From the NCBI GenBank assembly GCA_902579395.1, contig CACHGK010000002.1, positions 89,694 to 153,693 on the forward strand: a stretch of DNA of 64,000 nucleotides, written 5' to 3'. Origin of the DNA: an uncultured Alphaproteobacteria bacterium. Lineage in GTDB: Bacteria > Pseudomonadota > Alphaproteobacteria > Methylaequorales > Methylaequoraceae. Below the pieces are notes generated by a model. The model did not search any database. It was not told the DNA's origin and saw only the letters and a program-made list of their open reading frames with translations. Both the position numbers and the translations under genes were made by a program. Shown here one piece after another: positions 44,125 through 62,344 of the stretch; position 1 is the first letter of the stretch, and each line of letters begins with the position of its first letter.

Positions 44125-44167
44125 AACTATTCATATTTAAGGTTAATATATTCTTTTTCAAGTACAT

Positions 44168-45397: not shown

Positions 45398-45499
45398 AAC
45401 TATTCCTATGATATTTTAAGAAAACTTTATACCACTAAAAATAAAAAATACATAAAATTTCTTGTTAGCAATTAAAAATAATACTATTTATGATTCAAA

Positions 45500-49014: not shown

Positions 49015-49575
49015 ATGAGTTTAGCTTCAAATAACTGTCCAGCACTTGTTTTAAATGCTGACTATCAACCTCTAAGTTATTTTCCTTTGTCCACCTGGTC
49101 ATGGAAAGATGCTCTTAAAGCGGTATTTTTAGAGAGAGTCAATGTTGTTTCCGAGTATAATCAGGTAGTGAGATCGCCATCAATTGAGATAAAGCTTCCC
49201 AGTGTAGTTTCTTTAAAAGATTATATCCCTTTACCTGAAAAGGCCGCCTTTACAAGATTTAATGTTTTCTTAAGAGATAAATTTATTTGTCAGTATTGTC
49301 ATAACAGTTTTAAAGTAGAGGAATTGACATTTGATCATGTAACCCCTAAATCCAAAGGCGGAAAAACTTCATGGGAAAATGTAGTTACTGCTTGCAGAAA
49401 GTGTAACACACATAAAGGAAATAAATCACTTAAAAAGATTGGTTTAATTCTTAAAAAAAAACCTCATTCACCCAATAATTTTGAACTTAAAGAAATTGGA
49501 AGAATGTTTCCCCCTAATTTTCTTCACAAGAGTTGGAATGACTATCTTTACTGGGATTCCGAACTGGAACCTTAA
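49015..49575 (+). CDS. HNH endonuclease family protein
   Basis: LVLNADYQPL, RDKFICQYC, TFDHVTPKSKGG, WENVVTACRKCN. Confidence 0.9.
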   Translation: MSLASNNCPALVLNADYQPLSYFPLSTWSWKDALKAVFLERVNVVSEYNQVVRSPSIEIKLPSVVSLKDYIPLPEKAAFTRFNVFLRDKFICQYCHNSFKVEELTFDHVTPKSKGGKTSWENVVTACRKCNTHKGNKSLKKIGLILKKKPHSPNNFELKEIGRMFPPNFLHKSWNDYLYWDSELEP

Positions 49576-49576
49576 A

Positions 49577-50101
49577 TCAATACTTTTTCGAAACTTTGAT
49601 TGCAAATTTCGTTAGTTCTCTTGTAAATCTTTTGAATAATTTTACTCCACTTTGCCTCATGTTTGAATTTTCAGCAAAATGTCTGTGATCATCTTCATCT
49701 GCACGAAATTTTTTAATTTTCTTTAAAAGTTTATTTTCTACACCTTTTTGCTCAAGAAACTTAATTTGTTCCTCATAGTGTTCAACTATAACTTCTTCTA
49801 CAGCTTCTGTGCATGCATGAACATATTTTTCTCCTATTATTGACGTAAACACTCCTAAAAAATAACCTCCATAATGCCAGACTGGACTAAGCAGAGTTGG
49901 TCTAGTTCTTCTATTGATCATTTCCTCATTAAAAAATTCATAATGTTCGTATTCTTCTTTTATAATTCTTTTTAATTCTTTTTTTAGATCATCTTTTTTG
50001 CAAAACTTTATTTGACCTGAATAAATTCTTTGGGCTCCATATTCCCCTGCATGATTTACCCTAATGATCTCATCTATTTTCTTTTTAATGACTTTTTCCA
50101 T
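49577..50101 (-). CDS. coq7: Demethoxyubiquinone hydroxylase (di-iron)
   Basis: RVNHAGEYGAQRIY, EEYEH, TEAVEEVIVEHY, DEDDH. Confidence 0.92.
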   Translation of the reverse strand: MEKVIKKKIDEIIRVNHAGEYGAQRIYSGQIKFCKKDDLKKELKRIIKEEYEHYEFFNEEMINRRTRPTLLSPVWHYGGYFLGVFTSIIGEKYVHACTEAVEEVIVEHYEEQIKFLEQKGVENKLLKKIKKFRADEDDHRHFAENSNMRQSGVKLFKRFTRELTKFAIKVSKKY

Positions 50102-50600
50102 AATTCTTTAAAATAAATATGCTTAATATTATAAATCCTATTGAAATGATCAAGTTAAGATTAGCAAGTGATAAACCATAAATAGAAAATGATATTTCGT
50201 CACATTTTGTAATTGGAACCTCCTCAAGGAAATTTCTAAGATCTTCGATATTTTCAAAGTCTGTGTTTGTTGAAGTACAACCAATATCATAGCTTATAAG
50301 CTTCCTCTCAACTAAACTATGAAACCCTGAAATAAAAATACTAGAGGTTAAAATAATAATAGAAAAATAAACTAACTTTCTTGCTGGCCCTCTTAAAAAC
50401 GAAAAAAATGATAACAAAATTAAAAAAAAATAAGGAATGCGTTGGTAAATACATAACTTACATGGCGGATGATTAAAAAAATATTCAAGTATATAAGCAG
50501 ACAACAAAGTAAAAAATGACAAGAGGAATAGTAGTATGAAATAATTATTCATATTTAAACTACTAAAATATATTTTTGTATCTTTTAACATAAATTCCAA
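50085..50600 (-). CDS. dsbB: Disulfide bond formation protein B family (start may be ATG 50552)
   Basis: PCKLCIYQR, second Cys pair, GLSLA, four TM segments. Confidence 0.85.
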   Translation of the reverse strand: MEFMLKDTKIYFSSLNMNNYFILLFLLSFFTLLSAYILEYFFNHPPCKLCIYQRIPYFFLILLSFFSFLRGPARKLVYFSIIILTSSIFISGFHSLVERKLISYDIGCTSTNTDFENIEDLRNFLEEVPITKCDEISFSIYGLSLANLNLIISIGFIILSIFILKNYGKSH

Positions 50601-50656
50601 ATCATTCTTTTACTATTTTGTTGATTAAATTAAAATTAAAATTGTAAACTCCTGAC

Positions 50657-51376
50657 ATGATAAAAAATTTCAAAGATAGATATATTAAAAACTTATTCTT
50701 CTATCATATTTACAGATATTTCAAATATAAAATCAACTATTTTAGATCATATGGTGCCACAGGAGAGGACGTTCTAATAAATAAGATTTTTAAAAACAAA
50801 ATAGGTCTTTATATAGATATTGGTGCTCTTCACCCTATAAATGGTTCACTAACATACAATTTATACAACAAAGGTTGGCGAGGTTTCAATTTTGATATTG
50901 TTGAAAAAAATATCAAATTATTCAATATTTTTAGAAAAAGAGATAAATCAATAAATATAGCCTTATCTTCAAAATCTGGTTTTATCAATTCATATATTTT
51001 TGATTCTGGTTCTGGTTTAAATACGTTAGAACAAAAATGGGCTGACAAATGGTCTGGCATTCTAAATAAAAAATACAAAATTCACAAAATTAAGAAAACC
51101 TCACTGAATCAAGCCATAAAGAAATATAAAATACCAAAAAATATTGAGTTACTAAATATCGATGTTGAAGGTCATGAGATAGATGTTTTGAAAGGAATAA
51201 ATTTTAAATTATTTAGACCAAAAATAATTACGATAGAGATACATGTTGGGAGCACTGAAGAAATTTTTAACACACAAGTTTATAAAGCTTTAAAGAAAGC
51301 AAATTACAAATTAATCTCTCAATATTATCATACTTCTTTTTTTAAAGCTGATGAATTTTTAATTAAAGGTCTTTAA
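50657..51376 (+). CDS. FkbM-family methyltransferase
   Basis: YIDIGALHP, KGWRG, LLNIDVEGHEIDVLKG, RPKIITIE. Confidence 0.85.
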   Translation: MIKNFKDRYIKNLFFYHIYRYFKYKINYFRSYGATGEDVLINKIFKNKIGLYIDIGALHPINGSLTYNLYNKGWRGFNFDIVEKNIKLFNIFRKRDKSINIALSSKSGFINSYIFDSGSGLNTLEQKWADKWSGILNKKYKIHKIKKTSLNQAIKKYKIPKNIELLNIDVEGHEIDVLKGINFKLFRPKIITIEIHVGSTEEIFNTQVYKALKKANYKLISQYYHTSFFKADEFLIKGL

Positions 51377-51418
51377 AAACAATTCTAAAACTATAAATTG
51401 ATCCTATAAAGTTCTAAT

Positions 51419-51505
51419 GCCCCTATGGCGGAATTGGTAGACGCGACGGATTCAAAATCCGTTGAACTTCGGTTCATGTCCGTTCGAGTCGGACTAGGGG
51501 TACCA
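51419..51505 (+). tRNA. tRNA-Leu (anticodon CAA), 87 nt, CCA encoded
   Basis: Acceptor GCCCCTA/TAGGGGT + ACCA; D-arm GGCGGAATTGGTAGACGC; anticodon arm ACGGA-TTCAAAA-TCCGT; long variable arm TGAAC-TTCG-GTTCA; T-arm GTCCG-TTCGAGT-CGGAC. Confidence 0.97.
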
Positions 51506-51577
51506 TCTAAACTCAATGTAGGTAAGGGTTTTAGACTATACATATCGTTTTGAAAACAAACATTGAACCTAACAAAA

Positions 51578-51602
51578 TGTTTGATAGTGTTTGATACTAA
51601 TG
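51578..51602 (+). repeat. Tandem TGTTTGATA repeats, left end of cassette 1 (putative integrase arm-type sites)
   Basis: TGTTTGATA at 51578-51586 and TGTTTGATACTAATG at 51588-51602; same motif recurs at 53183-53207 and 56369-56376. Confidence 0.65.
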
Positions 51603-51707
51603 ACTCGCACAGACTACACAAGAATTTCACAAGGTTTATCAATTTATAAACAAGCGAGAAGTCTCCACTGGTTTGCTCACATGCCACGTTATTATTTCTT
51701 AAATTAA
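51600..51707 (+). pseudogene. Probable N-terminal remnant of a tyrosine integrase (35 codons)
   Basis: MTRTDYTRISQGLSIYKQARSLHWFAHMPRYYFLN*: GL-x-IY-x4-S-x2-W pattern resembles arm-binding beta-sheet N-termini; sits where an integrase gene is expected. Not verified by search. Confidence 0.5.
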
Positions 51708-51739
51708 ATTATTTGGCATATAATTTGCTGATTTTATAA

Positions 51740-52972
51740 ATGAATCAGTTAAGCCCAGAATCATTTGAAAAATTTAAATGTATTGGATCAAGCTGCCCAC
51801 AATCTTGTTGCGTTGGCTGGAAAATACTCATAGATGAAAATACATATGATAAATATAATAACTCTGAAGATAAGAAAATTAAATCTGTTGCAAATAAGTA
51901 TATAAAAAGACTTGAAAATACTAACGACTTTATTGCTGAAATTTCTTTAAAAGATAATTCTTGTCCTTTTTTAGGAGCTGACAAATTATGTGAAGTCCAA
52001 AAAAAATATGGTCATGATTATTTATCTCCTTCCTGCTCTAACTATCCAAGAAAATCAATAAATTTTGGTACCAAAAAATTAAAAACTTTAGATTTATCAT
52101 GTCCAGAGGCAGCTAGGTTAGTCTTATTTGATAAAAATCCTTTAAATCTTTATGAGGATAGAATCTATAAAACTAAGCTTCCTATTAGAATTAATAGTAA
52201 AAAGGAATTAGATAATTACAAAATAGTTGGTGAAAAAATTTTTAATCTTTCTTTATCATTATTAAATGATAATAAAGTTTCTACTCCTGTTGCATTATGC
52301 GTTACTAAGAAATTAATGGAGGAACAAAAGAATTTAGAATATTTTCCTGGTAAACTTGATGATATTTATAACTATTTTTTAAAAATTTTCTTAGAGAATA
52401 ATTTTTTAGATTTTGACACCACTTCCATAAAAATTAATTTTTTTCGAGATCTATATGAATATCGTAATAAACAATTATTTGATAAAAAAAATACCAAAAA
52501 AATTGGGATATCTGAGAAGTTTACAAATGAATGGAATCTTGCGTATGAAAATTTAATTAATAAATTCAATAGCTCTAAAAAAAGATTTGAAAATTTAAAA
52601 GAAATAGAAAAGCTTTATTACATTGAGTTAAATAAAGAAAAAGTGAATTTTATAAATAATTACCTCATCAATGAATTCCTTGGTAATTCAAGCATGTTTT
52701 ATTTCAAAGTTGCTTATATTGAAAAAAGGATAGAAATAATTTTATTAGTTGCTGTAATAGCTAAATTTTTAATTTTGGGAAAGTTATCAGAAGATAAATA
52801 TATTTCTCAAGATGAAATCACAAAGGCATTTTATCTTGCTAAAAGAAATATTCGTTTTTTTACTAACTTTAGACCAAATACAGAATATAAGTTTAGAGAT
52901 GAAATAGAGACAATTTTAAAGAAAATAGATAACAATGATCTTTTTAACTCATTGTTGTTCTTATTTATTTGA
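51740..52972 (+). CDS. fliB: FliB-like flagellin lysine-N-methylase (Cys-rich, putative Fe-S)
   Basis: FKCIGSSCPQSCCVGWKILID, CPFL-x4-LCEVQ-x2-YG-x2-YLS-x2-C-x2-YPR, LSCPEAARL. Confidence 0.8.
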   Translation: MNQLSPESFEKFKCIGSSCPQSCCVGWKILIDENTYDKYNNSEDKKIKSVANKYIKRLENTNDFIAEISLKDNSCPFLGADKLCEVQKKYGHDYLSPSCSNYPRKSINFGTKKLKTLDLSCPEAARLVLFDKNPLNLYEDRIYKTKLPIRINSKKELDNYKIVGEKIFNLSLSLLNDNKVSTPVALCVTKKLMEEQKNLEYFPGKLDDIYNYFLKIFLENNFLDFDTTSIKINFFRDLYEYRNKQLFDKKNTKKIGISEKFTNEWNLAYENLINKFNSSKKRFENLKEIEKLYYIELNKEKVNFINNYLINEFLGNSSMFYFKVAYIEKRIEIILLVAVIAKFLILGKLSEDKYISQDEITKAFYLAKRNIRFFTNFRPNTEYKFRDEIETILKKIDNNDLFNSLLFLFI

Positions 52973-53139
52973 ATGTAATTTTTTCTTATACGCTTGAGAT
53001 GCAATTAAACTTAATAATAAGTAATAGCTACCTTGCCACCATCCTAGCCAGAAAGAAAAGTAATTCCTAATCTATAACAACTCAATTAACTCTACTTAAA
53101 GATACAACCCTACCCCCCCTTGATTTTTAAGGTGATTGA

Positions 53140-53207
53140 TTTAACATTCATAGGGATATTTTTAGAGATTTTGAAAAAAAAAGTTTGATACTAATGTTTG
53201 ATACTAA
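53140..53207 (+). repeat. Conserved cassette right-end block plus tandem GTTTGATACTAA(T) repeats
   Basis: 53140-53190 aligns with 56328-56376 (6 mismatches and a 2-nt A-tract gap by manual alignment); GTTTGATACTAAT 53183-53195 and GTTTGATACTAA 53196-53207. Confidence 0.85.
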
Positions 53208-53223
53208 AATTTATTTGTATTTA

Positions 53224-53236
53224 AATCAATGACTTA
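53224..53236 (+). promoter_or_regulatory. IHF-binding consensus site between arm repeats and att core
   Basis: AATCAATGACTTA matches WATCAANNNNTTR exactly; 15 nt before the tRNA-fragment repeat. Confidence 0.55.
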
Positions 53237-53251
53237 CAACCAAACGCAACT

Positions 53252-53308
53252 GATTCAAAATCCGTTGAACTTCGGTTCATGTCCGTTCGAGTCGGACTAG
53301 GGGTACCA
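53252..53308 (+). repeat. tRNA-Leu 3' fragment copy 2 (attR-like), 57 bp
   Basis: Identical to 51449-51505 (GATTCAAAATCC...GGGGTACCA). Confidence 0.97.
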
Positions 53309-53331
53309 AAAACGAAAAAATTTATTAAATT

Positions 53332-54300
53332 TTACAAGGTTAATAATTTTTCATAAATTTTTCTACTTCTTCTATATAGCTCTTTATCGAAGTGAGATAT
53401 ATTTGTAGTATGAGAAATTTTAAAAAAATCATTTTTATAATAATATCTAAGATCTAGTTTTTTAAATATTTTTTTCCACATGATTTTAGAATTTAATTTT
53501 TCATAATTTATAAAAATAACATGTTTTTTTTCTTCATAATCTTTTAATACTTTACTGTAAAACAAAAACCATTGTTCTAACCAATAATTGATTGAATCAA
53601 ATTTTTTATAACTTTTAGAAAATGACCATGGTTTATGATCTAACCCAAACTCATAATGACCTAGCCAATTCATATATCTTCTTACAAATAAATCTTCAGT
53701 TTGAATTTTACTAAACTTTTTATGAATCTTTAATAGGGATAAAGAAGTTTGCAGAGGCTCCCTAAAAATAAATAAGAAAGATGCTTTGGGAAAAATACTA
53801 TGAATTTTATTAATTCTATTATAATTGTAGTTGTTTTTACTTAGATATCTTTTCTTAGTATTCTTAAGTAAAATTAAACTGATATAGCTTTCAAATTCGA
53901 TAATACTTTGTTCATTAGAAAATGTCTTCCAGAAAACTTCTTCCAAAGCTTCAGGTGAAGAAAAACTGTATTTGATACCATCATTATGTTTTCTTTCTAA
54001 TGAAATTTCTTTTTTTTTTATTTTTGAGGTACAAAATGACCAAATATTTGGACTTAAAACAAATGGCATATCATTGAAAGTTGATGAAGCAAATTGAGCA
54101 CTAGCATAAATATAATTTAAAATAATAGTAGTACCTGATCTTGGCAAACCCGTTATAAAAACATGTCTTCTATCATCACAATATTTATTTGATGATCTCA
54201 AGAATAATTCTTTTTCTATTTTAAAAGAGTAATACCTCAAGAATTTATTCGAAAGAATAAAACTATGAAGTTTTCTCTCTAAAAATTTATAGTTATGCAT
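53332..54300 (-). CDS. PAPS-dependent sulfotransferase family protein
   Basis: VFITGLPRSGTT 5'-PSB loop, FIFREPLQTSLS 3'-PB motif, INYEKL. Confidence 0.85.
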   Translation of the reverse strand: MHNYKFLERKLHSFILSNKFLRYYSFKIEKELFLRSSNKYCDDRRHVFITGLPRSGTTIILNYIYASAQFASSTFNDMPFVLSPNIWSFCTSKIKKKEISLERKHNDGIKYSFSSPEALEEVFWKTFSNEQSIIEFESYISLILLKNTKKRYLSKNNYNYNRINKIHSIFPKASFLFIFREPLQTSLSLLKIHKKFSKIQTEDLFVRRYMNWLGHYEFGLDHKPWSFSKSYKKFDSINYWLEQWFLFYSKVLKDYEEKKHVIFINYEKLNSKIMWKKIFKKLDLRYYYKNDFFKISHTTNISHFDKELYRRSRKIYEKLLTL

Positions 54301-54646
54301 TTTTAAATATTTTTAATAAGATTATTGATACTATGATTGCTATTATTAAGCCTTTAAAAGAAAAAACAATAATTTCTATTTCTGGTTTAATAAAAATCAT
54401 TATTAAATAAATTACCATTAAAATAAAAAGAACCAAAATTTGATATGTTGATTTTTTGAAAAGTTCTGAGCAAAGGCCAATTATTAATTTCTCCTTTTTT
54501 TTCTCTTCAAAACCTTTATTCAGAATGACCCTTTTTAGTGATAATATTAAATTATAATTATCTTTCAGTGATTCAAAAAAATTTGATTTTTTTATAATAA
54601 ATATAATTGTTGTTATAAATATTACATAAATTATGTAATTTAGCAT
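54293..54646 (-). CDS. Hypothetical membrane protein (about 3 TM)
   Basis: Hydrophobic segments; overlaps the sulfotransferase start, consistent with an operon. Confidence 0.65.
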   Translation of the reverse strand: MLNYIIYVIFITTIIFIIKKSNFFESLKDNYNLILSLKRVILNKGFEEKKKEKLIIGLCSELFKKSTYQILVLFILMVIYLIMIFIKPEIEIIVFSFKGLIIAIIVSIILLKIFKNA

Positions 54647-54676
54647 TTTACTTATACAGATAAATAAATAAAAAAA

Positions 54677-54859
54677 TCATTTCTTTTTATTTTTTAAAAA
54701 TCTTTTAATTGGAAAATATAGGATCGCTATTAATCCTATGAAAAAAGCTAATATTATCCCTGCTATAGAGGCTATTAATCCTCCTGCCATTCCAGGCCCA
54801 ATATAAGCATTCGTAAAAAAAGGTATTAAAACATTTAAAAAAAAAATTAATTTGTACAT
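54677..54859 (-). CDS. Small membrane protein with AYIGPG motif
   Basis: 60 aa: signal-like segment, AYIGPGMAGG, TM helix, basic tail; overlaps the upstream gene's stop. Confidence 0.7.
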   Translation of the reverse strand: MYKLIFFLNVLIPFFTNAYIGPGMAGGLIASIAGIILAFFIGLIAILYFPIKRFLKNKKK

Positions 54860-56241
54860 GATTTTGATTTTATTAATTTTATTTGATTTCTCAGTTTATT
54901 ATTCATTTTTAAAACTCTTGAAAAACCTAATCCATAATTAGTACCATTTTTTGCCTTATTTACATATTCAAGGGTTAATTCTCCATTTTTATCAAAAAAT
55001 AGTAGCCTTCCAGATTGAGTTTCTTCAATAAATAAACTTCCATCATCTAAGATTTCGGATAGACCTGCAACACTTGTTCTAACGTTATTTTCATTAATAC
55101 CCTTTGAAAATTTTTTGTTAAACTTTTTAGTTTCAAAATTATAAATTAGAATTTCGATATTTCCAATATCTGGATCGCCTAAAAAATGTATTCTTGCATT
55201 ATTAATTCTCTCTCCTTTATAGAAATAAATATTATTATTAAAAATTGAAATTTCTTTATCTGAAATAATGTCAACATCATGTTGATTTGAAAATGGACCA
55301 GTAATAGAGCTAATGATTTTATTAGTTGAAGGCCTATATAAAATAATCATATTTTGTGATCTTAAACTTAAAAATAAATCTCCTTTTTTCCAATATTTAC
55401 CATTCTGCTCAACTGGTTGTATATCGTTTAGATGAATTGGGTCTCCATGAAATACATAATTAGAAAAAACTAGATGCTCTAATTTATTATCTAGTAAGAT
55501 TTGTGATACGGATTTTTGATATAATATTTTCCCTTCTTTAGAAACTTTCGTTATTGCATCATCAAAAAAATCACCATACTTATTTCCTACTTTTTTTTCG
55601 TCCAGTGAATAAGGAAATATTCTTGAGGGTACCCAGTAGTTTTCATTAGAATCTACTTCATTAGAATGATGAAAATGATCTATATCATTTATCCATTTTA
55701 ATTTATTACATGCATCAATTTTAATCAATGCCGATCCATTTGCGTGAAAGAGTAAACCACCATCACTCGTAATCAGAGGTGAATGTATTTTAAATCTATT
55801 TTCATGAAGATCTCTTTCTAAAAGTAAATACTCCTCTCTTTTCTGATCAATCAGACTATTTATATATTTTATATCAGGATTCCATCTTTGGATTACTTTT
55901 TGATCCTCTAGATTAATAAGTTCAACTACACTTTCACTAATATTACCATCATATCTTGAAAGTAATAAAAAATAATTCTTCTGTTTAAAAGAACCAACAA
56001 AACCATCTTTATCTTTAAATCTTTTACCCACTCCTAGGTCAACTCCAGGATCTTTAGCAACATGTAAAATTTTTTTTATATTCATTGGAATCTCAGCAAG
56101 AAAAACTGCAAACTTTGAAATAGGACCGAGCTTCACAGTGCCTACTAATTCTTGTCTGACTAAAACACCAAAAAAAATTGCAAATAAAATTGAACAAAGT
56201 ATTGCAAGATATAAAATCCAAATCTCTATTTTTTTAAACAT
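54847..56241 (-). CDS. Arylsulfotransferase (ASST)-like beta-propeller protein, membrane-anchored
   Basis: HFHHSNE, DPIHLNDIQP, LFLSLRS, NQHDVD, ISIFNN motifs; N-terminal TM. Confidence 0.78.
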   Translation of the reverse strand: MFKKIEIWILYLAILCSILFAIFFGVLVRQELVGTVKLGPISKFAVFLAEIPMNIKKILHVAKDPGVDLGVGKRFKDKDGFVGSFKQKNYFLLLSRYDGNISESVVELINLEDQKVIQRWNPDIKYINSLIDQKREEYLLLERDLHENRFKIHSPLITSDGGLLFHANGSALIKIDACNKLKWINDIDHFHHSNEVDSNENYWVPSRIFPYSLDEKKVGNKYGDFFDDAITKVSKEGKILYQKSVSQILLDNKLEHLVFSNYVFHGDPIHLNDIQPVEQNGKYWKKGDLFLSLRSQNMIILYRPSTNKIISSITGPFSNQHDVDIISDKEISIFNNNIYFYKGERINNARIHFLGDPDIGNIEILIYNFETKKFNKKFSKGINENNVRTSVAGLSEILDDGSLFIEETQSGRLLFFDKNGELTLEYVNKAKNGTNYGLGFSRVLKMNNKLRNQIKLIKSKSCTN

Positions 56242-56327
56242 TTTGAATTTCCAATAATGTGTCTATTAATAATTTCCTGTTATTTTAAACTAACTTTAGT
56301 CGATAATCTACTAATAGGAATTTGAAT

Positions 56328-56376
56328 TTTAATATTCATGGAGATATTCCTACAGATTTTGAAAAAAAGTTTGATA
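56328..56376 (+). repeat. Second copy of the cassette right-end block
   Basis: TTTAATATTCATGGAGATATTCCTACAGATTTTGAAAAAAAGTTTGATA, homologous to 53140-53190. Confidence 0.85.
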
Positions 56377-56420
56377 GAAAAAACCTTATGTAATCAAATT
56401 AATAACATACATTATACATA

Positions 56421-56480
56421 ACGGATTCAAAATCCGTTGAACTTCGATTCATGTCCGTTCGAGTCGGACTAGGGGTACCA
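56421..56480 (+). repeat. tRNA-Leu 3' fragment copy 3 (attR-like), 60 bp
   Basis: Matches 51446-51505 with one G>A mismatch at 56447 (variable arm). Confidence 0.97.
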
Positions 56481-56581
56481 TGAAATTAATTGTCTTTTCC
56501 TGAATAAATTTTTATGATTAGATTCTGACTTAACCTTATTCCTAAAGATAATTTTTAAAAAGTGTGATAGTAAAGTTTATT

Positions 56582-57346
56582 ATGACAAGACATAGAGGAA
56601 AATTTAATATAAACAACCCTGAACCTTATGAACTAAGCAGATCAAGAATAGAAAACTTTATAAAATGTCCAGCTTGTTTTTTTATGCAGCAGGTTGAAGG
56701 TATTGAGTTTCCAAGTATGCCAGGTTTCAACATCAATGAAGCTACGGATATTTTGTTAAAAAAAGATTTTGATTATTATAGAGAAAAAAAAAAAACTCAT
56801 CCATTTTTAGAAAACCACGGTTTTTCTCACCTTATACCGTTTCAACATAAACATTTTGAACTGTGGACTCAAAGTATGCATTTTGGTGCTGAAAACAGAA
56901 TGCATTATGATCATTTGGAGTCAAATATTAGAGTGGGAGGTGGGCTTGATGATGTATGGTTGAATACAAAAACATCTAAAATCCACATAGTTGATTATAA
57001 AAGTACATCACAAAAAAAAAATAACGGTCCTATAAATTTAAACGATAAATGGAAAGAAGCTTACAAGAGACAAATGGATCTATACGTTTGGGTAATGAAA
57101 AGGAAAGGTTTTAATGTTGATGAAATAGGGTTTTTTTTATACTGCGATGGCAACAGATTTACAGATCAAAGCTTTTTAAATAATAAAAACGCAATGATGG
57201 AATTCAAAATTACTTTAATAGAATACAAAACAAATCTTTCATGGATTGAAGTAACACTGAATAACATTCACAGTTGCTTAAGGTTGGACAAACGACCTAA
57301 ACATTCAGAAAATTGTGAATACGGTATTTTTATTAATCAAATTTAA
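56582..57346 (+). CDS. PD-(D/E)XK nuclease, solo Cas4/AddB-like (ATG 56582 preferred over GTG 56564)
   Basis: LSRSRIENFIKCPACFF, GGLDDVW, IVDYKST, YKRQMDLY, C-terminal CEY. Confidence 0.8.
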   Translation: MTRHRGKFNINNPEPYELSRSRIENFIKCPACFFMQQVEGIEFPSMPGFNINEATDILLKKDFDYYREKKKTHPFLENHGFSHLIPFQHKHFELWTQSMHFGAENRMHYDHLESNIRVGGGLDDVWLNTKTSKIHIVDYKSTSQKKNNGPINLNDKWKEAYKRQMDLYVWVMKRKGFNVDEIGFFLYCDGNRFTDQSFLNNKNAMMEFKITLIEYKTNLSWIEVTLNNIHSCLRLDKRPKHSENCEYGIFINQI

Positions 57347-57444
57347 GAAAACTTTGAAACCATTTTAGAAAATTAATGCAGTCAAAGGTTCTAGACCTAA
57401 CGTAATTGATCAAGTGAAGTTAATGATCTTCTTTACATAGAAAA

Positions 57445-59934
57445 TTATCCATTTCTTAATAGAGAGTATGCGTTAGTATTTACATACTTCCTATTTGAAA
57501 TCAATAATGTAAAGATTAGTATTATTAAAAATAAACCAGAAATAATAAAAGAAACAGAGAGAGAAAAATACCAGTTAATATTTAAAAAGTTTACTATAAA
57601 GATGTAAGAAAAAATTACAGAAAATATTAATGAAGATATAATTATTGGAATAAAAACTATTAAAGATTCAAAAATTAGTAACTTTATAATACTAGATTTT
57701 TCAAAACCAAGAATTCTTAAGACTATGTTTTGATAAATCTTAAGATTCCCAATTACACTTACAGCATTTGATATTACGATTAGTCCGATAAAAATAACTA
57801 CGCCCGAAATTAAAATACTTGCAATAAATAATTTGTTTAAAAAATTTCTTGTTTTATTTATGTAATCCGACAGTTTAATATAAGTAATGGTTGGTAATGT
57901 TGTTATTAAATTGCTGAAATTGACTAATTTATCATGCTTAAACTTCACAGCAGATAAATATTCGTGAGGAATTTTCGAAGCGAACTTTGGATTAAATAAA
58001 ATTGCAAAATTTATGTTCAGATCTCTGTAATCAACTTTTCGAAAGTTCTCAATAATCCCTGAAACTGAATTACCATAAATGTTAAATGTAATGGAGTCAC
58101 CTATTTTAAGTTTTAGATCACTAGCAACTTTGTAATCTAATGAAAGTTTTAATTTATATTCTTTATCTGAATCCCACCACTTGCCCATGACAATTGGATT
58201 ATTGGTTGGAGGCTCATCTGACCAAGATATTCTTCTTTCTCCATTAATAAACCAAAAACTTTTATTTTTTTCATCAATTATTTCCTTTGGTTTTCTGTTA
58301 TTTATAGCCTCTATTCTTGCAGATATCATTGGGAAAATTTCTTTGTTTGCTTCATCATCAATCTCACGAATTTGATCTGAGAATATATTTAATTCATTTT
58401 TTTGAATTCCTAAAAAGAAGTAATCAGGAGCGTTTTCAGGTATTGAAGTATTTAATTCCTTATTAATATTAGAAGACAAAAATCCCAGAAAAAATATAAC
58501 CGTTATACCTAATCCCATTGTCATTATTATTGTCGAATTAAGACTACGATATGCTTTTAGATTTTTAATTCCCATTTTTATAGATATGTTTTCAATATTT
58601 TTAATTTTATTTAAAATTAATATGTAGAACTTCGATAAAATGAAATAGAAAAAACCAATTATAATAAAAAAAGAGAAGAATATTGCTGTTTGCAGAGGCT
58701 TAACATTATATAGACAGAAAAAAATAATAAATATTAATAAAAATATGCTAATTTCAATGATCGATTTTCTACTCAAATTTAAATTCAAGTTTGAATTACT
58801 GCTTCTAAATAAATTGGATACTTTAATTTGTTCAATACTATCTAAAACAGGTTTAGCAAATATAAAAAATATTAAAATGCTAAAGAACTGAATTTTCAAA
58901 TACTCGTAGAATTTAAATTTAACCTTAAGATGAATATTTAAAAAATCTAGAAGATACTGATCTAAGATTGAAACCAAGAATAAACTAAAAGTATAAGCAA
59001 AAAATGAACAAAGGATCAGAATTATTAAACTTTGAATGTAGTATAATAATTTAATATTTTTAGAACTGAGTCCTAATGACTTAAAGATTGCAATTTTGAA
59101 CTGATTGTTAGTTAAAAATGAAAATAATGAGTTTTTTAATCCAATGCCAGAAATAAGAATAGCTGAGGCTGATATAATAGTTAAAAAATAAATAAAATTT
59201 TCAATGGCTTTTTTTAGATTCTGATTGATATCCTCAGGATATTTTATTTCAAGATTTTTATATTTGCTTAAGTTATTAAGAAATTTTTCATTATTATCCT
59301 TATTTATCAGTTTATATTTAAAAATAAAAAAACTTCCAAGATTATCAATTTTTAAATCCTTAAAGCTAGATTCATTTATTAACGCTTGATCTCCGAAAAG
59401 AAATGCACCCCCAATATCTGGGAGACTCTCAATAACTCCAATAACTTCAAACTCACTATTTTGTATTTTAATTCTTTCACCTAGTTGTAAATCAAGATTG
59501 TTCTGAGTAGTTTTATCAATCAAAATACTATTTGGTTTGGTCTTAAGTATTTGAAGTGAATTTGGAGGCTCAACGATTACATTACCAATCAGCGGATAAG
59601 AACTATCTATTACTTTTACTCTGATTGTTTTACTTTTTTCATTTTTGGTTCTCATAATTGAAGTAAATTCAATTACCTTTGTTAAAAAGAATTCCTCTTT
59701 TAATTTATCTAATAAATTTAAATCTAAAGCTTCATTTTTCGTTGATAGTTCTAAATCGCCTCCAAGTAAAACTCTTGAATTATTTTTTATCTCATTTTCT
59801 ATGCCATTTTTTAAAATTGTAACGGAAGAAAAAATTACAAAACTTATAAAAATTGTAAAAAAAACTTTTGTAATCTTTGATTTATTCTTATTTAATTCGT
59901 GTATTAAAAATTGAAGATATTTTGGAAAAGTCAT
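57445..59934 (-). CDS. ABC transporter permease, YbbP-like (two FtsX/MacB-type repeats)
   Basis: LLGGDLEL, IAIFKSLG, APDYFFLGIQ, RKVDY-x4-INF, LRILG; 829 aa; follows the ABC ATPase. Confidence 0.85.
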   Translation of the reverse strand: MTFPKYLQFLIHELNKNKSKITKVFFTIFISFVIFSSVTILKNGIENEIKNNSRVLLGGDLELSTKNEALDLNLLDKLKEEFFLTKVIEFTSIMRTKNEKSKTIRVKVIDSSYPLIGNVIVEPPNSLQILKTKPNSILIDKTTQNNLDLQLGERIKIQNSEFEVIGVIESLPDIGGAFLFGDQALINESSFKDLKIDNLGSFFIFKYKLINKDNNEKFLNNLSKYKNLEIKYPEDINQNLKKAIENFIYFLTIISASAILISGIGLKNSLFSFLTNNQFKIAIFKSLGLSSKNIKLLYYIQSLIILILCSFFAYTFSLFLVSILDQYLLDFLNIHLKVKFKFYEYLKIQFFSILIFFIFAKPVLDSIEQIKVSNLFRSSNSNLNLNLSRKSIIEISIFLLIFIIFFCLYNVKPLQTAIFFSFFIIIGFFYFILSKFYILILNKIKNIENISIKMGIKNLKAYRSLNSTIIMTMGLGITVIFFLGFLSSNINKELNTSIPENAPDYFFLGIQKNELNIFSDQIREIDDEANKEIFPMISARIEAINNRKPKEIIDEKNKSFWFINGERRISWSDEPPTNNPIVMGKWWDSDKEYKLKLSLDYKVASDLKLKIGDSITFNIYGNSVSGIIENFRKVDYRDLNINFAILFNPKFASKIPHEYLSAVKFKHDKLVNFSNLITTLPTITYIKLSDYINKTRNFLNKLFIASILISGVVIFIGLIVISNAVSVIGNLKIYQNIVLRILGFEKSSIIKLLIFESLIVFIPIIISSLIFSVIFSYIFIVNFLNINWYFSLSVSFIISGLFLIILIFTLLISNRKYVNTNAYSLLRNG

Positions 59935-59936
59935 TG

Positions 59937-60605
59937 TTAAACTTTTATTCGACCATCAATGATGTTTAAAATTCTATCACACTTTTTTGCCAATTCCATA
60001 TTATGAGTAACTAAAATTAAAGTAATTTTTTTTTTCTTAGAATATTTCAACAGCAAATCAGATACTAATTTTGTATTTTTTGTATCTAAGTTTCCAGTAG
60101 GTTCATCTGCCAAGATAATCTCTGGACCAAATGAAATCGCTCTAGCAATCGCAACTCTTTGTTGTTCACCACCTGATAATTCAGAAGGTAAATTATCTTT
60201 TCGATGATCTAGACCTATATCTGAAAGAAGCGAAGTAGCTTTTTTTTTTTCATTATTAATTTTATTTATTTGCATTGGAAACATTACATTTTCAATAGCA
60301 GTATAATTTGGTATTAAATAAAATTGCTGAAAAATTAATCCAATTCTTTTTTTTCTTATTTCAGTTTTTCTTTTTTCAGAAATTTTAGAGAAATCTTCCT
60401 GATTAAAAAATATTGAACCGCTTGTAGGTTTTTCTAAACCAGACATTAGCATCAAAAGGCTTGTTTTTCCTGAACCACTTTCACCCATTATAGCCACTCG
60501 TTCGTTAGTATTTATTTCAAAATTAATATTTTTTAAAACCTTGATTTCATGACCATTTAAATGATAGTTAAGATTTATGTTATCTAGTCTATACAAATTT
60601 TTCAT
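59937..60605 (-). CDS. ABC transporter ATP-binding protein, YbbA/LolD-like
   Basis: GESGSGKT, LSGGEQQRVAIARA, ILADEPTGNLD, VTHN. Confidence 0.92.
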   Translation of the reverse strand: MKNLYRLDNINLNYHLNGHEIKVLKNINFEINTNERVAIMGESGSGKTSLLMLMSGLEKPTSGSIFFNQEDFSKISEKRKTEIRKKRIGLIFQQFYLIPNYTAIENVMFPMQINKINNEKKKATSLLSDIGLDHRKDNLPSELSGGEQQRVAIARAISFGPEIILADEPTGNLDTKNTKLVSDLLLKYSKKKKITLILVTHNMELAKKCDRILNIIDGRIKV

Positions 60606-61218
60606 TTTTAGATTTATGTTTATTTTGATTATTGCAGTAAACCTTATACCAACAAAAGTTTATTGTAATCAAAAAATTGTATTGTTTGGTGATAGTTTAA
60701 TGGCTGGTTATGGTTTAGATCAAGAGTTTCATTTATCAACCATTTTGGAAAAAAATCTCAAAATTAAAGGATTCAATGTAAATGTAGTAAATGCAAGTGT
60801 ATCTGGAGATACAACATCTGGCGGACTTAATAGATTGAGTTGGTTAATTGAGAAAAAAGATATAGATATTATGGTTTTATGTCTTGGGGCCAATGATATG
60901 TTAAGAGGCATAAAACCTATTCATATAAAAAACAATTTGAATAAAATATTAGAAATTTTAAAAGAAAATAAGATAACTGTCCTTTTCGCAGGCATGATAT
61001 CTCAGGAAACATTTGGAGAAAGTTATAAGAAAGAATTTGATAGAATATATCCTGAACTGGCTTACAAATTTAAAGTTTCTTTTTTACCTTTTCTGCTAGA
61101 TGGTGTTGCACTTAATCCTGAACTAAATTTAAAAGATGGAAAACACCCTAACTCTAAAGGTGTAAATTTAATTAGTAAAAATTTAGAAAAGAAATTAATT
61201 GCACTTCTTGATCAATAG
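60577..61218 (+). CDS. tesA: Arylesterase / acyl-CoA thioesterase I (GDSL/SGNH); start may be ATG 60616
   Basis: FGDSLMAGYG, NASVSGDTTSGG, LGANDMLRG, DGKHPN; head-to-head with the ybbA-like gene. Confidence 0.88.
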   Translation: MLSSLYKFFIFRFMFILIIAVNLIPTKVYCNQKIVLFGDSLMAGYGLDQEFHLSTILEKNLKIKGFNVNVVNASVSGDTTSGGLNRLSWLIEKKDIDIMVLCLGANDMLRGIKPIHIKNNLNKILEILKENKITVLFAGMISQETFGESYKKEFDRIYPELAYKFKVSFLPFLLDGVALNPELNLKDGKHPNSKGVNLISKNLEKKLIALLDQ

Positions 61219-61349
61219 TCTGATTTACATATAAATATAATAACACTCAATTAATTGAAGTTTGAGATGTATAAGCTTATGATTTAAACTTGATGGTAAA
61301 AAAATTAATTTGAGAATCATCCGATCTTTAATTAAGGTTAACATATAAA

Positions 61350-62327
61350 ATGAAAAAACATATTGCAGTAATTGGTGCTGGTTTATCAGGAATCACGATT
61401 GCCTCAATCATTAAAGAAAAATTTAAAGTGGAAGTCTTCGAAAAATCAAGAGGGGTTGGTGGAAGAATGTCAACTAGAAAAGAACTTCCATTCATCTTTG
61501 ATCATGGAGCACAATTTTTTAAAATTGAATCAAATGATTTCAAGAATTTCGTTGCAGAATTGATTGCTCAACAAATTATTTGTCCATGGAAACTAAAGCT
61601 TGCATATTTTGAGGGAGATAATTTGAAGAAAATTAAAATGATACAAAAAAAACATAAATTTTATGTTGGAGTTCCAAGTATGGACTCGATTGTTAAATAT
61701 ATGTCAAAAGATCTGTGTGTTAATCTTAATACAAAAATTGAAAGAATCATTAAGAAAGGCGATAAATGGTATATATATGACCAAAATAAAAAGCGTCATG
61801 GTCACTATGATTGGATTATAATAAGTCTTCCAGCAGAACAATCTTTAGAATTGATAGCAAAAACAATATGCTTTCATTCATTAATTAAAAAAATTAAAAT
61901 GGTTGGGTGTATTAGTTTGATGGTAGGTTTGAATAAATCTTTAAATTTAGATTTTGACGCAGCTTTAATCAAAAATAAAGATATTGCATGGTTAGCTTTA
62001 AACAATTCTAAACCTCATAGAAAAAAAAATACTTGTTTGTTAATAAATTCCTCATACGAGTACGCAAAAAAAAATTCCAACTCCTCAAAGATTAAAGTCC
62101 AGAAACATTTACTGAATGAAACACGTAACCTAATAAATTCTAATTTATCAGATGCAGAACTTCTAAAAGTTCATCAATGGAAATATGTTGAAGCAAAGAA
62201 TCATCCTGCTGAAGATTATTTTATTGATCGGGACCAAAAAATAGGAGTTTGCGGTGACTGGTTTATTAACAGTAGAGTTGAAGGTGCGTTTCTAAGTGCA
62301 AAAAAACTATCAAATGAAATTCTTTAA
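61350..62327 (+). CDS. Renalase-like FAD/NAD(P)-dependent oxidoreductase
   Basis: IAVIGAGLSG, FEKSRGVGGRMSTR, FDHGAQFF, CGDW...RVEGAFLS. Confidence 0.85.
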   Translation: MKKHIAVIGAGLSGITIASIIKEKFKVEVFEKSRGVGGRMSTRKELPFIFDHGAQFFKIESNDFKNFVAELIAQQIICPWKLKLAYFEGDNLKKIKMIQKKHKFYVGVPSMDSIVKYMSKDLCVNLNTKIERIIKKGDKWYIYDQNKKRHGHYDWIIISLPAEQSLELIAKTICFHSLIKKIKMVGCISLMVGLNKSLNLDFDAALIKNKDIAWLALNNSKPHRKKNTCLLINSSYEYAKKNSNSSKIKVQKHLLNETRNLINSNLSDAELLKVHQWKYVEAKNHPAEDYFIDRDQKIGVCGDWFINSRVEGAFLSAKKLSNEIL

Positions 62328-62344
62328 TAACAATAAAAATTAAT

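What the first reader, a model, noticed from the sequence alone, without database searches (positions are those of the whole stretch)
51419..56480. tRNA-Leu-anchored array of small integrase-less gene cassettes separated by tRNA 3'-half repeats (integron-like accretion)
Seen: the tRNA 3' portion, from the anticodon arm through CCA, is repeated at 53252-53308 (57/57 identical) and 56421-56480 (59/60), defining units of 1803 bp and 3172 bp that hold only cargo and no intact recombinase. All copies start at the symmetric anticodon stem-loop (GA-TTCAAAA-TC). Established: tyrosine integrases that cross over in the 7-nt anticodon loop restore the tRNA and displace its 3' part, and repeated events give tandem islands. 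Inference: these units are much smaller than typical islands, share end sequences, and may be a family of non-autonomous cassettes serially added at one tRNA by a trans-acting integrase. Best candidate for an undescribed system in this window, although tandem tRNA islands in general are known.
Basis: partly seen in the sequence, partly recalled or inferred. Interest (0 to 1): 0.85.

Follow-up and report, generated by a model that had tools for sequence, protein, structure and literature searches.

The report
Integrase-less gene cassettes stacked at tRNA-Leu
Behind one leucine tRNA gene of an uncultured marine alphaproteobacterium lies a stack of small gene packets, each ending in the same docking sequence plus a copy of the tRNA's back half; related species carry different packets in different orders, none with its own integration enzyme.

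Summary
tRNA-Leu(CAA) (51419-51505) is followed by two direct copies of its 3' part (57/57 and 59/60), bounding units of 1803 and 3172 bp. I found a third, decayed unit (56481-~57407).

The same architecture occurs across the whole family: 31 of 42 genomes have 2 or more matches to the tRNA 3' part. In 21 arrays I defined 48 units of 0.5-11.9 kb; 26 hold one ORF. Identical units sit at different array positions in different species. One 4.26-kb PhoA unit is 99.2-99.4% identical across two genera.

Units end in a conserved attP-like arm: a block, then 1-3 short direct repeats of three types, then a spacer and the core. The window's arm recurs in 44 of 78 other loci; its cargo recurs in 0 of 78.

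No recombinase lies in any array or in 55 metagenome contigs. The own genome has only XerC/D-like genes and a conserved integrase homologue that lacks the catalytic Arg/His residues.

Best reading: serially integrated, non-autonomous cassettes made by anticodon-loop tyrosine recombination, with the enzyme supplied in trans and unidentified. Homologous recombination between the arm-plus-core modules is the main rival. The general phenomenon (additive tRNA islands, tycheposons) is in print, so this is a new variant.

The parts
51419..51505 (+). tRNA-Leu(CAA), the anchor (attB/attL side). It is intact and 100% identical in 24 relatives.
51506..51660 (+). Left (P'-type) arm of unit 1. It is 95-96% identical to the left ends of two units with unrelated cargo (L043_u1, L050_u2) and holds two arm repeats (GTTTGATAG/C at 51579-51587 and 51589-51597).
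51740..52972 (+). Cargo of unit 1: a 410-aa flagellin-lysine-N-methylase (FliB)-like gene. Window 51680-52301 is 98.7% identical to a non-array locus of another species (G002:C16).
53052..53251 (+). Right (P-type) arm of unit 1: conserved ~200 nt, with the block at 53147-53180, arm repeats GTTTGATAC at 53183-53191 and 53196-53204, a spacer, and an end in AACGCAACT.
53252..53308 (+). First copy of the tRNA 3' part (positions 31-87, 57/57 identical), marking the end of unit 1.
53332..54300 (-). Cargo of unit 2: a sulfotransferase (PF13469).
54293..54859 (-). Cargo of unit 2: two small ORFs (117 aa and 60 aa) with no family above threshold.
54847..56241 (-). Cargo of unit 2: an arylsulfotransferase (ASST, PF14269).
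56286..56420 (+). Right arm of unit 2: block at 56335-56368 and a single arm repeat GTTTGATAG at 56369-56377.
56421..56480 (+). Second copy of the tRNA 3' part (positions 28-87, 59/60 identical), marking the end of unit 2.
56481..57410 (+). Third, decayed unit. Its left end is shared with L046_u2 (41 nt, 95%). An arm-like remnant lies around 56540-56580 (GTGTGATAG at 56562). Cargo is a PD-(D/E)XK nuclease gene at 56564-57346. A type-B right-arm remnant lies at 57345-57410, followed by a decayed core.
57445..61218 (.). Conserved right boundary of the island: MacB/FtsX-type ABC permease, ABC ATPase and GDSL hydrolase. These follow the arrays in 10 relatives.

Best explanation
This is a tRNA-Leu(CAA)-anchored additive genomic island built from small, non-autonomous integrative cassettes. 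Each cassette is cargo (often one gene) joined to a portable attP-derived module. The module is a ~200-nt arm with 1-3 short direct repeats, sometimes a ~155-nt left arm as well, plus the tRNA's 3' part from the anticodon stem to CCA.

Inferred mechanism:
1. A tyrosine integrase crosses over in the anticodon loop between a circular cassette and the tRNA gene.
2. This restores the tRNA and pushes earlier cassettes downstream, so the newest unit lies next to the tRNA and older att copies decay.
3. The integrase is not encoded in the array or, as far as can be seen, in this genome. It must come in trans from a transient element, a phage or vesicle-borne DNA. Alternatively it is now only historical, with later shuffling helped by homologous recombination between the repeated modules.

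Shown: the anatomy, the family-wide distribution, cassette sharing and reordering between species, polar decay, the absence of a cis recombinase, and recent horizontal spread. Inferred: the enzyme class, the crossover point, circular intermediates and present-day activity.
For: Anatomy:
- Three copies of the tRNA 3' part lie only at this locus.
- The core is flanked by an element-specific left junction (ACT instead of the tRNA's ACG) that extends the inverted symmetry of the anticodon stem.
- Arm repeats are enriched: 9 found against 1.4 expected, 0 of 100 shuffles reaching 9, and 6 of the 9 lie on the + strand at unit ends.

Family-wide pattern:
- In 21 arrays, 48 units were defined. Repeat starts fall at tRNA position 31 in 31 of 48 and at 28-32 in 41 of 48.
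- The block is present in 25 of 48 units, and an AACGCAACT-like end in 35 of 48.
- Arm types are A 21, B 10, C 8 and none 9 of 48. In 5 of the 6 units that have left-arm repeats, these match the unit's own right-arm type.

Mobility as units:
- The same cassettes occur at different array ranks in different species. The 1.13-kb unit is at ranks 2, 1, 1 and 4. The 0.66-kb unit is at rank 3 in one genome and rank 1 in another, on opposite sides of the PhoA unit.
- The 4.26-kb PhoA unit is 99.2-99.4% identical between genomes whose flanks are 89% identical or not alignable.
- The window's arm is found in 44 of 78 other loci and its cargo in 0 of 78.

Polarity: mean repeat identity by rank is 97.4, 97.4, 96.1, 93.6 and 84.2%. 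The last copy is less identical than the first in 11 of 14 arrays. The window's third unit has a decayed core.

No cis recombinase: best E = 0.044 in the 21 arrays, none in 15 further pieces, and best E = 0.39 in 55 metagenome contigs totalling 264,587 nt.

Analogy within the same family: tRNA-Thr(UGU) elements have a 48-nt att running from the anticodon stem to the 3' end. They carry an inward-facing 396-aa integrase whose start lies ~20 nt from two direct repeats.
Against: - No integrase for this att site was found anywhere: none in 42 family genomes, none in IMG/VR by four pattern scans, and none in INPHARED phages.
- No circular contig or core-to-core joint was seen.
- Three arm-repeat types coexist in single arrays. 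This is awkward for a single trans-acting enzyme.
- Many units lack a recognisable left arm, including the window's unit 2.
- Core SNPs do not travel with the cassettes as a simple integrase model predicts.
- Homologous recombination between the ~260-nt arm-plus-core modules could give the same sharp unit boundaries.
- Only one genome per species was available, so strain-level turnover was not measured.
Confidence: 0.6

Rival explanations
1. The arm-plus-core modules (~260 nt) now act only as portable homology. Cassettes are gained, lost and reordered by RecA-type homologous recombination between arrays of different cells. Site-specific integration was only the historical origin of the modules.
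For: - No integrase was found for this site in 42 genomes or 55 metagenome contigs.
- Cores look homogenised, and their SNPs do not follow the cassettes.
- Pseudo-tRNA copies do promote rearrangement: in G011 a stretch of Leu-type cassettes sits inverted behind the genuine tRNA-His.
- The HIMB59 island paper argues for homologous recombination as the exchange mechanism for islands at fixed positions in streamlined marine Alphaproteobacteria (passage of PMC10734472).
- Cargo can be swapped between the arms: the fliB-like gene is 98.7% identical to a non-array locus.
Against: - On the tRNA side only 57 nt of homology is available for the first crossover.
- Three arm types with different repeats at the same relative position, and left/right repeat matching in 5 of 6 units, look like protein-binding sites rather than neutral homology.
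- Polar decay of repeat identity fits insertion at the tRNA end better than insertion at any junction.
Confidence: 0.25
2. The units are deletion relics of larger integrase-bearing islands (tycheposon- or prophage-like) with no independent mobility. Shared units reflect common descent.
For: - On the reverse strand the conserved block reads ATG-TTA-AAT. These are the same first three codons as the inward-facing 396-aa tRNA-Thr integrase of the same family, at a comparable distance from the direct repeats. This is weak: a 9-nt match in AT-rich DNA.
- The tycheposon preprint describes degenerate remnants and scattered partial tRNAs in islands (passages).
Against: - Unrelated cargos join the arm at a common boundary ~205 nt from the core, not at the scattered end points that independent deletions would give.
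- The same units sit at different ranks and with different neighbours.
- A unit is 99.2-99.4% identical between genera whose flanks do not align.
- None of the 21 arrays holds even a fragment of an integrase.
Confidence: 0.08
3. An integron-like platform served by a resident enzyme. The family-specific DUF6538 integrase homologue, fixed beside tRNA-Leu(GAG), would be the dedicated recombinase of the tRNA-Leu(CAA) array.
For: - It is single-copy in 24 of 36 family genomes (many incomplete) and in none of the 24 genomes of other families.
- It lies directly after tRNA-Leu(GAG) in 12 of 12 loci.
- It is embedded in conserved synteny in 14 relatives.
- The frame is intact in most, and it is a true tyrosine-recombinase homologue (hhalign 96.9%, E = 1.5e-10).
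- Retaining such a gene in a 1.3-Mb streamlined genome suggests a host function.
Against: - Catalytic Arg I aligns to Ser/Thr in all 11 sequences. His II, Arg II and His III are also replaced.
- PF00589 does not reach threshold on it.
- It was not found in genera g2, g5, g6, g8 and g10, which still have arrays with 98-100% identical repeats, for example G019 at 96% completeness.
- No arm motifs lie near it.
- Its neighbouring tRNA has an unrelated anticodon arm.
Confidence: 0.05
4. The repeats are an assembly artefact or a chance similarity.
For: None. Metagenome contigs often break at the repeat, which shows only that it is repeated.
Against: - A 57/57 and a 59/60 match in a 1.3-Mb genome.
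- The same layout in 20 other assemblies and in 55 metagenome contigs.
- Long contigs span whole arrays, for example contigs of 703,833 and 233,220 nt.
Confidence: 0.01

Closest known systems
Additive flexible genomic islands at tRNA genes (Alteromonas, PMC4898812; 'Ca. Methylopumilus' fGI-2, PMC10872708; passages read)
   Same: A recombination hotspot at a tRNA. Gene cassettes vary in number and order. A tell-tale partial tRNA repeat follows each cassette. Identical cassettes occur in divergent species.
   Different: Here the units are mostly 0.5-4 kb, and 26 of 48 hold a single ORF. Each carries a defined, conserved ~200-nt arm with arm-type repeats. No integrase is seen in any array. The passages I read do not describe conserved arms or a systematic lack of integrases.
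Tycheposons of Prochlorococcus (bioRxiv 10.1101/2020.12.28.424599; passages read)
   Same: Streamlined marine host. Integration at tRNA genes leaving partial tRNAs. Tandem elements separated by a partial tRNA. Niche cargo such as phosphate acquisition. Islands grow from the tRNA outwards. A core-genome integrase relative exists there too.
   Different: Tycheposons are defined by their own site-specific integrase (inward-facing at one end) and hallmark replication genes, and are typically ~10-20 kb. The units here have neither. That preprint explains integrase-less island material by imprecise excision of transient elements, not by cassettes carrying their own att module.
Integrons (from general knowledge; Integron Finder is mentioned in PMC10872708)
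   Same: An array of small, often single-gene cassettes, each with its own recombination site. Insertion is at one end. Cassettes are shared across species. Cassettes lack a recombinase.
   Different: There is no adjacent intI or attI and no Pc promoter. The recombination site is a double-stranded tRNA-derived core plus arm, not a folded single-stranded attC: the arm folds no better than shuffles (z = +1.24). Genes lie on both strands.
CIMEs, cis-mobilizable elements of streptococcal ICE/IME systems (search listing only; the concept is recalled)
   Same: att-flanked elements with no recombination or transfer genes. They lie in tandem at a tRNA or gene 3' end and are thought to move after accretion with an element that encodes the cognate integrase.
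   Different: No cognate integrase-bearing partner is seen at this site. The units are far smaller and far more numerous, and form arrays of up to 5 or more. The host lacks conjugative elements as far as was searched.
tRNA-Thr(UGU) integrative elements of the same bacterial family
   Same: The att site runs from the anticodon stem to the tRNA 3' end. The arm has two direct repeats close to the element end. The host family is the same.
   Different: They carry an intact 396-aa integrase that is 92-100% identical across three genera. Their arm repeats and target tRNA are different.

Membership tests
tRNA-integrating element made by a tyrosine integrase (anticodon-loop type) | A direct repeat of the tRNA 3' part, starting in the anticodon stem-loop, bounds the insert, and the tRNA stays intact | tested here: met
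   (start at position 31 in 31 of 48 copies, at 28-32 in 41 of 48)
tRNA-integrating element made by a tyrosine integrase (anticodon-loop type) | The element encodes its own integrase | tested here: not met
   none in 21 arrays, 15 further pieces or 55 metagenome contigs
Additive flexible genomic island | Same chromosomal site in relatives, with cassettes that differ in number, kind and order | tested here: met
Additive flexible genomic island | Variation between strains of one species | not testable with these tools
   The collection holds one genome per species. Logan contigs were too short to tell.
Tycheposon | A site-specific integrase at one end, facing inward | tested here: not met
Tycheposon | Hallmark replication genes (primase, helicase, polymerase) | tested here: inconclusive
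   None appears among the 25 most frequent Pfam families of 88 cargo representatives. Only the top 25 of 158 families were shown.
Tycheposon | Integration at a tRNA with partial tRNA copies, and niche-adaptive cargo | tested here: met
   (PhoA, transferases, DNA methylases)
Integron | An intI integrase gene next to attI at the head of the array | tested here: not met
   the 3 kb upstream of the tRNA hold FkbM methyltransferase, DsbB and COQ7 genes and no recombinase
Integron | attC sites that fold as imperfect hairpins | tested here: not met
   z = +1.24; 178 of 200 shuffles fold at least as well; no RNA or structured family
Integron | Cassettes mostly promoterless and co-oriented behind Pc | tested here: not met
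   cargo lies on both strands (unit 1 on +, unit 2 on -)
CIME (cis-mobilizable element) | Flanked by att sites and lacking recombination and transfer genes | tested here: met
CIME (cis-mobilizable element) | A cognate integrase-bearing element that integrates alongside and mobilises it | tested here: not met
   Not found in 42 genomes, IMG/VR or phage records. Absence from incomplete genomes is not proof.
IMEX (elements that exploit XerCD) | Integration at a dif-like site | not tested
   The site is a tRNA anticodon arm. I ran no dif comparison and rejected this reading from recalled knowledge of dif only.

The most novel reading that the evidence does not exclude
A lineage-wide gene-cassette platform that needs no cassette-borne or adjacent integrase. 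A portable ~260-420-nt att module (arm, tRNA-Leu 3' half, and optionally a left arm) captures single chromosomal genes. An example is the fliB-like gene, 98.7% identical to a non-array locus of another species. The module docks these genes at tRNA-Leu(CAA) and moves them between species and genera. The recombinase would be one not yet recognised: a vesicle- or phage-borne integrase, or the conserved DUF6538 protein that lacks the canonical Arg-His-Arg residues. This would be a functional counterpart of integrons in genome-streamlined ocean bacteria. Some modules also carry an antisense tRNA-His-like copy, which may link the tRNA-Leu and tRNA-His islands.
Probability: 0.2. Interest if true: 0.85.

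Novelty: new variant of a known kind. Interest (0 to 1): 0.6.

Why it matters
How genome-streamlined ocean bacteria, which lack plasmids, conjugation and most prophages, keep a large flexible gene pool is an open question. This locus shows a very economical answer. Single genes are attached to a short, conserved docking module and stacked behind a tRNA. They are exchanged across species and genera at near-identity: PhoA alkaline phosphatase, DNA methylases, and sulfo-, glycosyl- and methyl-transferases.

If the cassettes are truly mobilised in trans, the system gives defined substrates for finding the missing recombinase: the arm, the core and three repeat types. It also gives a way to measure gene flux in wild populations. 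If they move by homologous recombination, the modules are a natural example of portable homology arms. Either result sharpens the models proposed for additive islands and tycheposons.

Tried and rejected
- Phage or viral parent: the arm/core junction, the core, and two block-plus-repeat patterns gave 0 hits in IMG/VR. blastn of the arm plus core gave no match in INPHARED phages. Exact-pattern scans miss diverged copies.
- Circular forms: two metagenome contigs start and end with the junction (L132, L154), but their ends differ beyond the core. They are array pieces, not circles.
- Reads: 20 marine metagenome runs from 11 studies hold parts of 51300-57500. Four were laid, as Logan contigs only. 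The pieces were mostly under 600 nt. All listed joints had sides of about 20-35 nt in AT-rich sequence, and none joined core to core. There is no verdict on excision. Depth was higher in the bins that hold the tRNA, arms and cores; I read nothing firm into that.
- Core-SNP linkage test: too few informative sites and no consistent linkage to the left or right cassette. Inconclusive.
- Structured-RNA reading of the arm: no Rfam family (best E = 0.58) and no unusual fold. Rejected.
- Promoter/terminator scan of 51300-57500: 40 promoter-like sites against 40.7 expected, and 0 terminators. Uninformative.
- Other recombinase classes in the own genome: PF00239, PF07508 and PF01797 gave no match. The genome is ~80% complete.
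- Extra integrases of relatives (396-457 aa) sit at tRNA-Thr(UGU) and tRNA-Ser(GGA), not at tRNA-Leu(CAA).
- PDB sequence search with the DUF6538 profile: 0 hits. No structure was predicted.
- PADLOC on the six window cargo proteins: no defence family.
- Taxon name: record titles say only 'uncultured Alphaproteobacteria bacterium' or 'Rickettsiales bacterium'. I suspected HIMB59/AEGEAN-169 from memory. However, the order here holds a single family, whereas the HIMB59 paper describes two families. I leave the taxon unnamed.
- Prior description: I searched for 'tycheposon'; additive / flexible genomic island / tRNA / cassettes / SAR11; cis-mobilizable element / accretion; and AEGEAN-169 / HIMB59 / genomic island / tRNA. 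I found no description of this array in what I read.

Full report
**1. The observation**

ARAGORN finds one tRNA in the window, tRNA-Leu(CAA) at 51419-51505 on the + strand. Rfam's tRNA model agrees. The repeat finder reports a three-copy direct family with spacings of 1803 and 3172 bp. Against the whole assembly (1,303,360 nt, 25 contigs, GC about 29.5%, ~80% complete), blastn-short finds only three long hits, all at this locus. They are the tRNA, a 57/57 copy of positions 31-87 (53252-53308) and a 59/60 copy of positions 28-87 (56421-56480).

The units hold only cargo:
- Unit 1: a FliB-like lysine-N-methylase gene (NF038110, 189 bits against a cut-off of 85).
- Unit 2: a sulfotransferase, two small ORFs and an arylsulfotransferase, all on the minus strand.

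**2. A third unit**

The stretch 56481-~57410 carries a PD-(D/E)XK nuclease gene. It ends in a sequence 82-84% identical to the right arms of units in three other genomes. The tRNA core after it has decayed beyond recognition. The MacB-type ABC transporter, ATPase and GDSL genes at 57445-61218 are the conserved right boundary: they follow the arrays in 10 relatives.

**3. Relatives**

The assembly belongs to an order that holds a single family of 42 species-level genomes in the collection. Record titles say only 'uncultured Alphaproteobacteria bacterium' (single-cell genomes) or 'Rickettsiales bacterium'.
- 31 of 42 genomes have 2 or more matches to the tRNA 3' part, and 21 of 42 have 3 or more. 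A few of these matches are other tRNA-Leu genes.
- I fetched 20 tRNA-Leu(CAA) loci. With the window they give 21 arrays, 20 of them with at least one partial copy. The one without ends 2.1 kb after the tRNA.
- Between successive copies I defined 48 units of 0.48-11.9 kb. 26 hold one ORF of 70 aa or more.
- The partial copies start at tRNA position 31 in 31 of 48 cases and at 28-32 in 41 of 48.

**4. The units behave as discrete cassettes**

All-against-all blastn shows the same units in different species at different ranks:
- A 1.13-kb unit at ranks 2, 1, 1 and 4.
- A 1.18-kb unit at ranks 1, 1 and 3.
- A 1.3-kb unit at ranks 1, 3 and 1.
- A 0.66-kb unit that lies after a 4.26-kb unit in one genome and before it in another.

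The 4.26-kb unit carries a PhoA alkaline phosphatase. It is 99.2-99.4% identical in three genomes from two genera (genus labels). The 3 kb upstream of the tRNA are 89% identical within one of those genera and not alignable between the two. That contrast means recent horizontal spread.

The window's own right arm (at least 80 nt beyond the core) recurs in 44 of 78 further loci (55 metagenome contigs and 23 genome contigs). Its left arm recurs in 4 and its three cargos in 0.

**5. Anatomy of the ends**

Most units end with a conserved block (present in 25 of 48 with up to 3 mismatches). This is followed by 1-3 direct repeats of a 9-10-nt motif and then ~45 nt ending in AACGCAACT or a near variant (35 of 48). 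The tRNA-identical core comes next.

The three repeat types are:
- A: GTKTGATAG, 21 units.
- B: CATTGAYAC, 10 units.
- C: GTGTGAGAG-like, 8 units.
- 9 units were untyped.

Unrelated cargos join the arm at a common point ~205 nt from the core. A subset of units, including the window's unit 1, also has a ~155-nt left arm carrying the same repeats. Left and right repeat types agree in 5 of 6 such units. In the window the motif GTKTGATAS occurs 9 times against 1.4 expected; 0 of 100 shuffles reach 9, and 6 of the 9 lie on the + strand at unit ends.

The junction base differs from the tRNA (ACT|GATTC against ACG|GATTC). It extends the inverted symmetry around the anticodon loop. The arm matches no RNA family and folds no better than shuffles. 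This layout of a symmetric core with arms bearing direct repeats is that of a tyrosine-integrase attP. That is established knowledge of lambda-type sites and an inference here.

**6. Polarity**

Mean identity of the partial copies to the tRNA falls with rank: 97.4, 97.4, 96.1, 93.6 and 84.2% for ranks 1 to 5. The last copy is less identical than the first in 11 of 14 arrays with two or more copies. The window fits this pattern (100%, 98.3%, then decayed). This is as expected if new units enter at the tRNA.

**7. The recombinase**

Pfam PF00589 finds two genes of ~305 aa in the own genome. They are XerC/D-sized; one lies in the window near 9267-9770.

I built a local profile from eight tyrosine recombinases of this family. 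It finds:
- Nothing in the six-frame translation of the 21 arrays (best E = 0.044).
- Nothing in 13 further array pieces. In the two tRNA-His loci scanned with them (L098, L104) it hits only the already known DUF6538 gene beside tRNA-Leu(GAG), none in the cassette stretches.
- Nothing in 264,587 nt of metagenome contigs (best E = 0.39).

Serine recombinases and Y1 transposases are not found in the own genome. Extra integrases of relatives lie at tRNA-Thr(UGU) and tRNA-Ser(GGA). The Thr type is instructive. Its att also runs from the anticodon stem (position 29) to the 3' end. The 396-aa integrase faces inward and starts ~20 nt from two direct repeats. It is 92-100% identical across three genera, so such elements are active in this family.

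The same local profile picked up a third gene in the own genome, C1:212448-213716.
- It has a DUF6538 domain (E = 1.3e-12) and starts 13 nt after tRNA-Leu(GAG).
- It is single-copy in 24 of 36 family genomes and in none of the 24 genomes of other families.
- It lies next to that tRNA in 12 of 12 loci and in conserved synteny in 14 relatives.
- It is a genuine recombinase homologue (hhalign 96.9%). However, Arg I aligns to Ser/Thr in all 11 sequences, and His II, Arg II and His III are also replaced.
- It was not found in five genera that still have fresh arrays.

I therefore give it little weight as the cassette enzyme.

**8. Cargo capture**

Window 51680-52301 (the fliB-like gene plus 60 nt upstream) is 98.7% identical to the start of an 11.8-kb contig of another species (G002:C16). 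That contig has no tRNA core or arm, and its far end is syntenic with own C3 at ~107-108 kb, where the own genome has a 33%-identical paralogue. The flanks of the two species are only 73-79% identical. The breakpoint lies just after the 155-nt left arm. So a chromosomal gene was recently placed between generic arms, or moved the other way. FliB-like genes are recurrent cargo in or next to other arrays.

**9. What it most likely is**

The best reading is a stack of non-autonomous integrative cassettes made by anticodon-loop site-specific recombination, with the enzyme supplied in trans and still unknown (confidence 0.6). The main rival (0.25) is that the arm-plus-core modules now serve as portable homology for ordinary recombination. 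The missing integrase, the homogenised cores and the inversion seen in G011 speak for that rival. The three repeat types, the left/right matching and the polar decay speak against it. Deletion relics of larger elements (0.08), a resident DUF6538 enzyme (0.05) and an artefact (0.01) are less likely.

**10. Comparison with what is known**

- Passages of PMC4898812 describe additive islands at Alteromonas tRNAs. There, cassettes are each followed by a partial tRNA repeat and are shared between species.
[quoted passage not shown] Methylopumilus'.
- The tycheposon preprint describes tandem elements separated by partial tRNAs, remnants, and related elements in Alpha-, Gamma- and Deltaproteobacteria. 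It defines tycheposons by their own integrase.
- The HIMB59 paper (abstract, passages and section 6) describes phosphate islands that explicitly lack tRNA boundaries.
- CIMEs are known to me only from a search listing and from memory.

The distinctive points here are: very small units; a defined conserved att module on each unit; three arm types; complete absence of a cis integrase across the family; and evidence of recent cargo capture. I rate it a new variant of a known kind, with interest 0.6.

**11. Limits**

- There is one genome per species, and many are 54-90% complete.
- The pattern scans are exact-match.
- Logan contigs were too short to show joints.
- Supplements of the papers could not be read.

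Noticed in passing
own genome G000:C1:212448-213716 (outside the window; locus L084:9449-10717, minus strand): A DUF6538-type tyrosine-recombinase homologue starts 13 nt after tRNA-Leu(GAG). It is family-specific, single-copy and in conserved synteny. The catalytic Arg I, His II, Arg II and His III are all replaced. It looks like a domesticated or inactivated integrase kept by a 1.3-Mb genome.
   Followed up: yes
own genome G000:C2:164747-164823 and about +6.7, +7.3 and +8.2 kb (about 11 kb beyond the window's right end): tRNA-His(GTG) anchors its own array of partial copies, which again start near position 31. In relatives tRNA-His lies 6.6 kb after tRNA-Leu(GAG)-int and is followed by a variable region. 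In the own genome it has moved to 23.5 kb downstream of tRNA-Leu(CAA).
   Followed up: partly
relatives' units L048_u2, L033_u1, L041_u3, L040_u1, L049_u1, L045_u2 (right ends); L098:11197-11265: One group of Leu(CAA) cassette arms carries an antisense, near full-length tRNA-His-like copy directly upstream of the arm block (94% identity to the real gene in L048_u2). In G011 a stretch of such cassettes sits inverted behind the genuine tRNA-His, as if the two had recombined.
   Followed up: partly
window 61350-62327 (+): A 325-aa NAD-binding/amine-oxidase-like gene lies beyond the island's right boundary here. In three other genomes its homologue (~75% nt identity) is a 1.3-kb cassette inside the tRNA-Leu array (L046_u1, L048_u3, L050_u1).
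   Followed up: partly
relatives: L053-L055, L179-L185 (tRNA-Thr(UGU) elements): A 396-aa integrase is 92-100% identical across three genera whose cores are ~70% identical. It lies next to a 48-nt partial tRNA-Thr. This is an integrative element now spreading in this family.
   Followed up: partly
window 50000-64000: GC drops to 24-27% from about 50 kb to the window's end, against about 29.5% for the genome. The region is rich in sulfo-, methyl- and glycosyl-transferase-type genes, including a TPR-sulfotransferase at 62345-64000 (-). It may be part of a larger flexible region.
   Followed up: no
window 42439-47482: Acyl-CoA dehydrogenase, a crotonyl-CoA-reductase-like zinc dehydrogenase (44168-45397, -) and a fused mutase with a B12-binding domain (45500-47482, +) lie together. 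These are ethylmalonyl-CoA-pathway-like genes in a 1.3-Mb genome.
   Followed up: no
window ~9267-9770 (-) = G000:C2:98960-99463: One of the two XerC/D-sized tyrosine recombinases of the genome lies inside the window, 42 kb from the array.
   Followed up: no
window 49015-49575 (+): A stand-alone 186-aa HNH endonuclease gene lies 1.8 kb upstream of the tRNA, among core genes.
   Followed up: no
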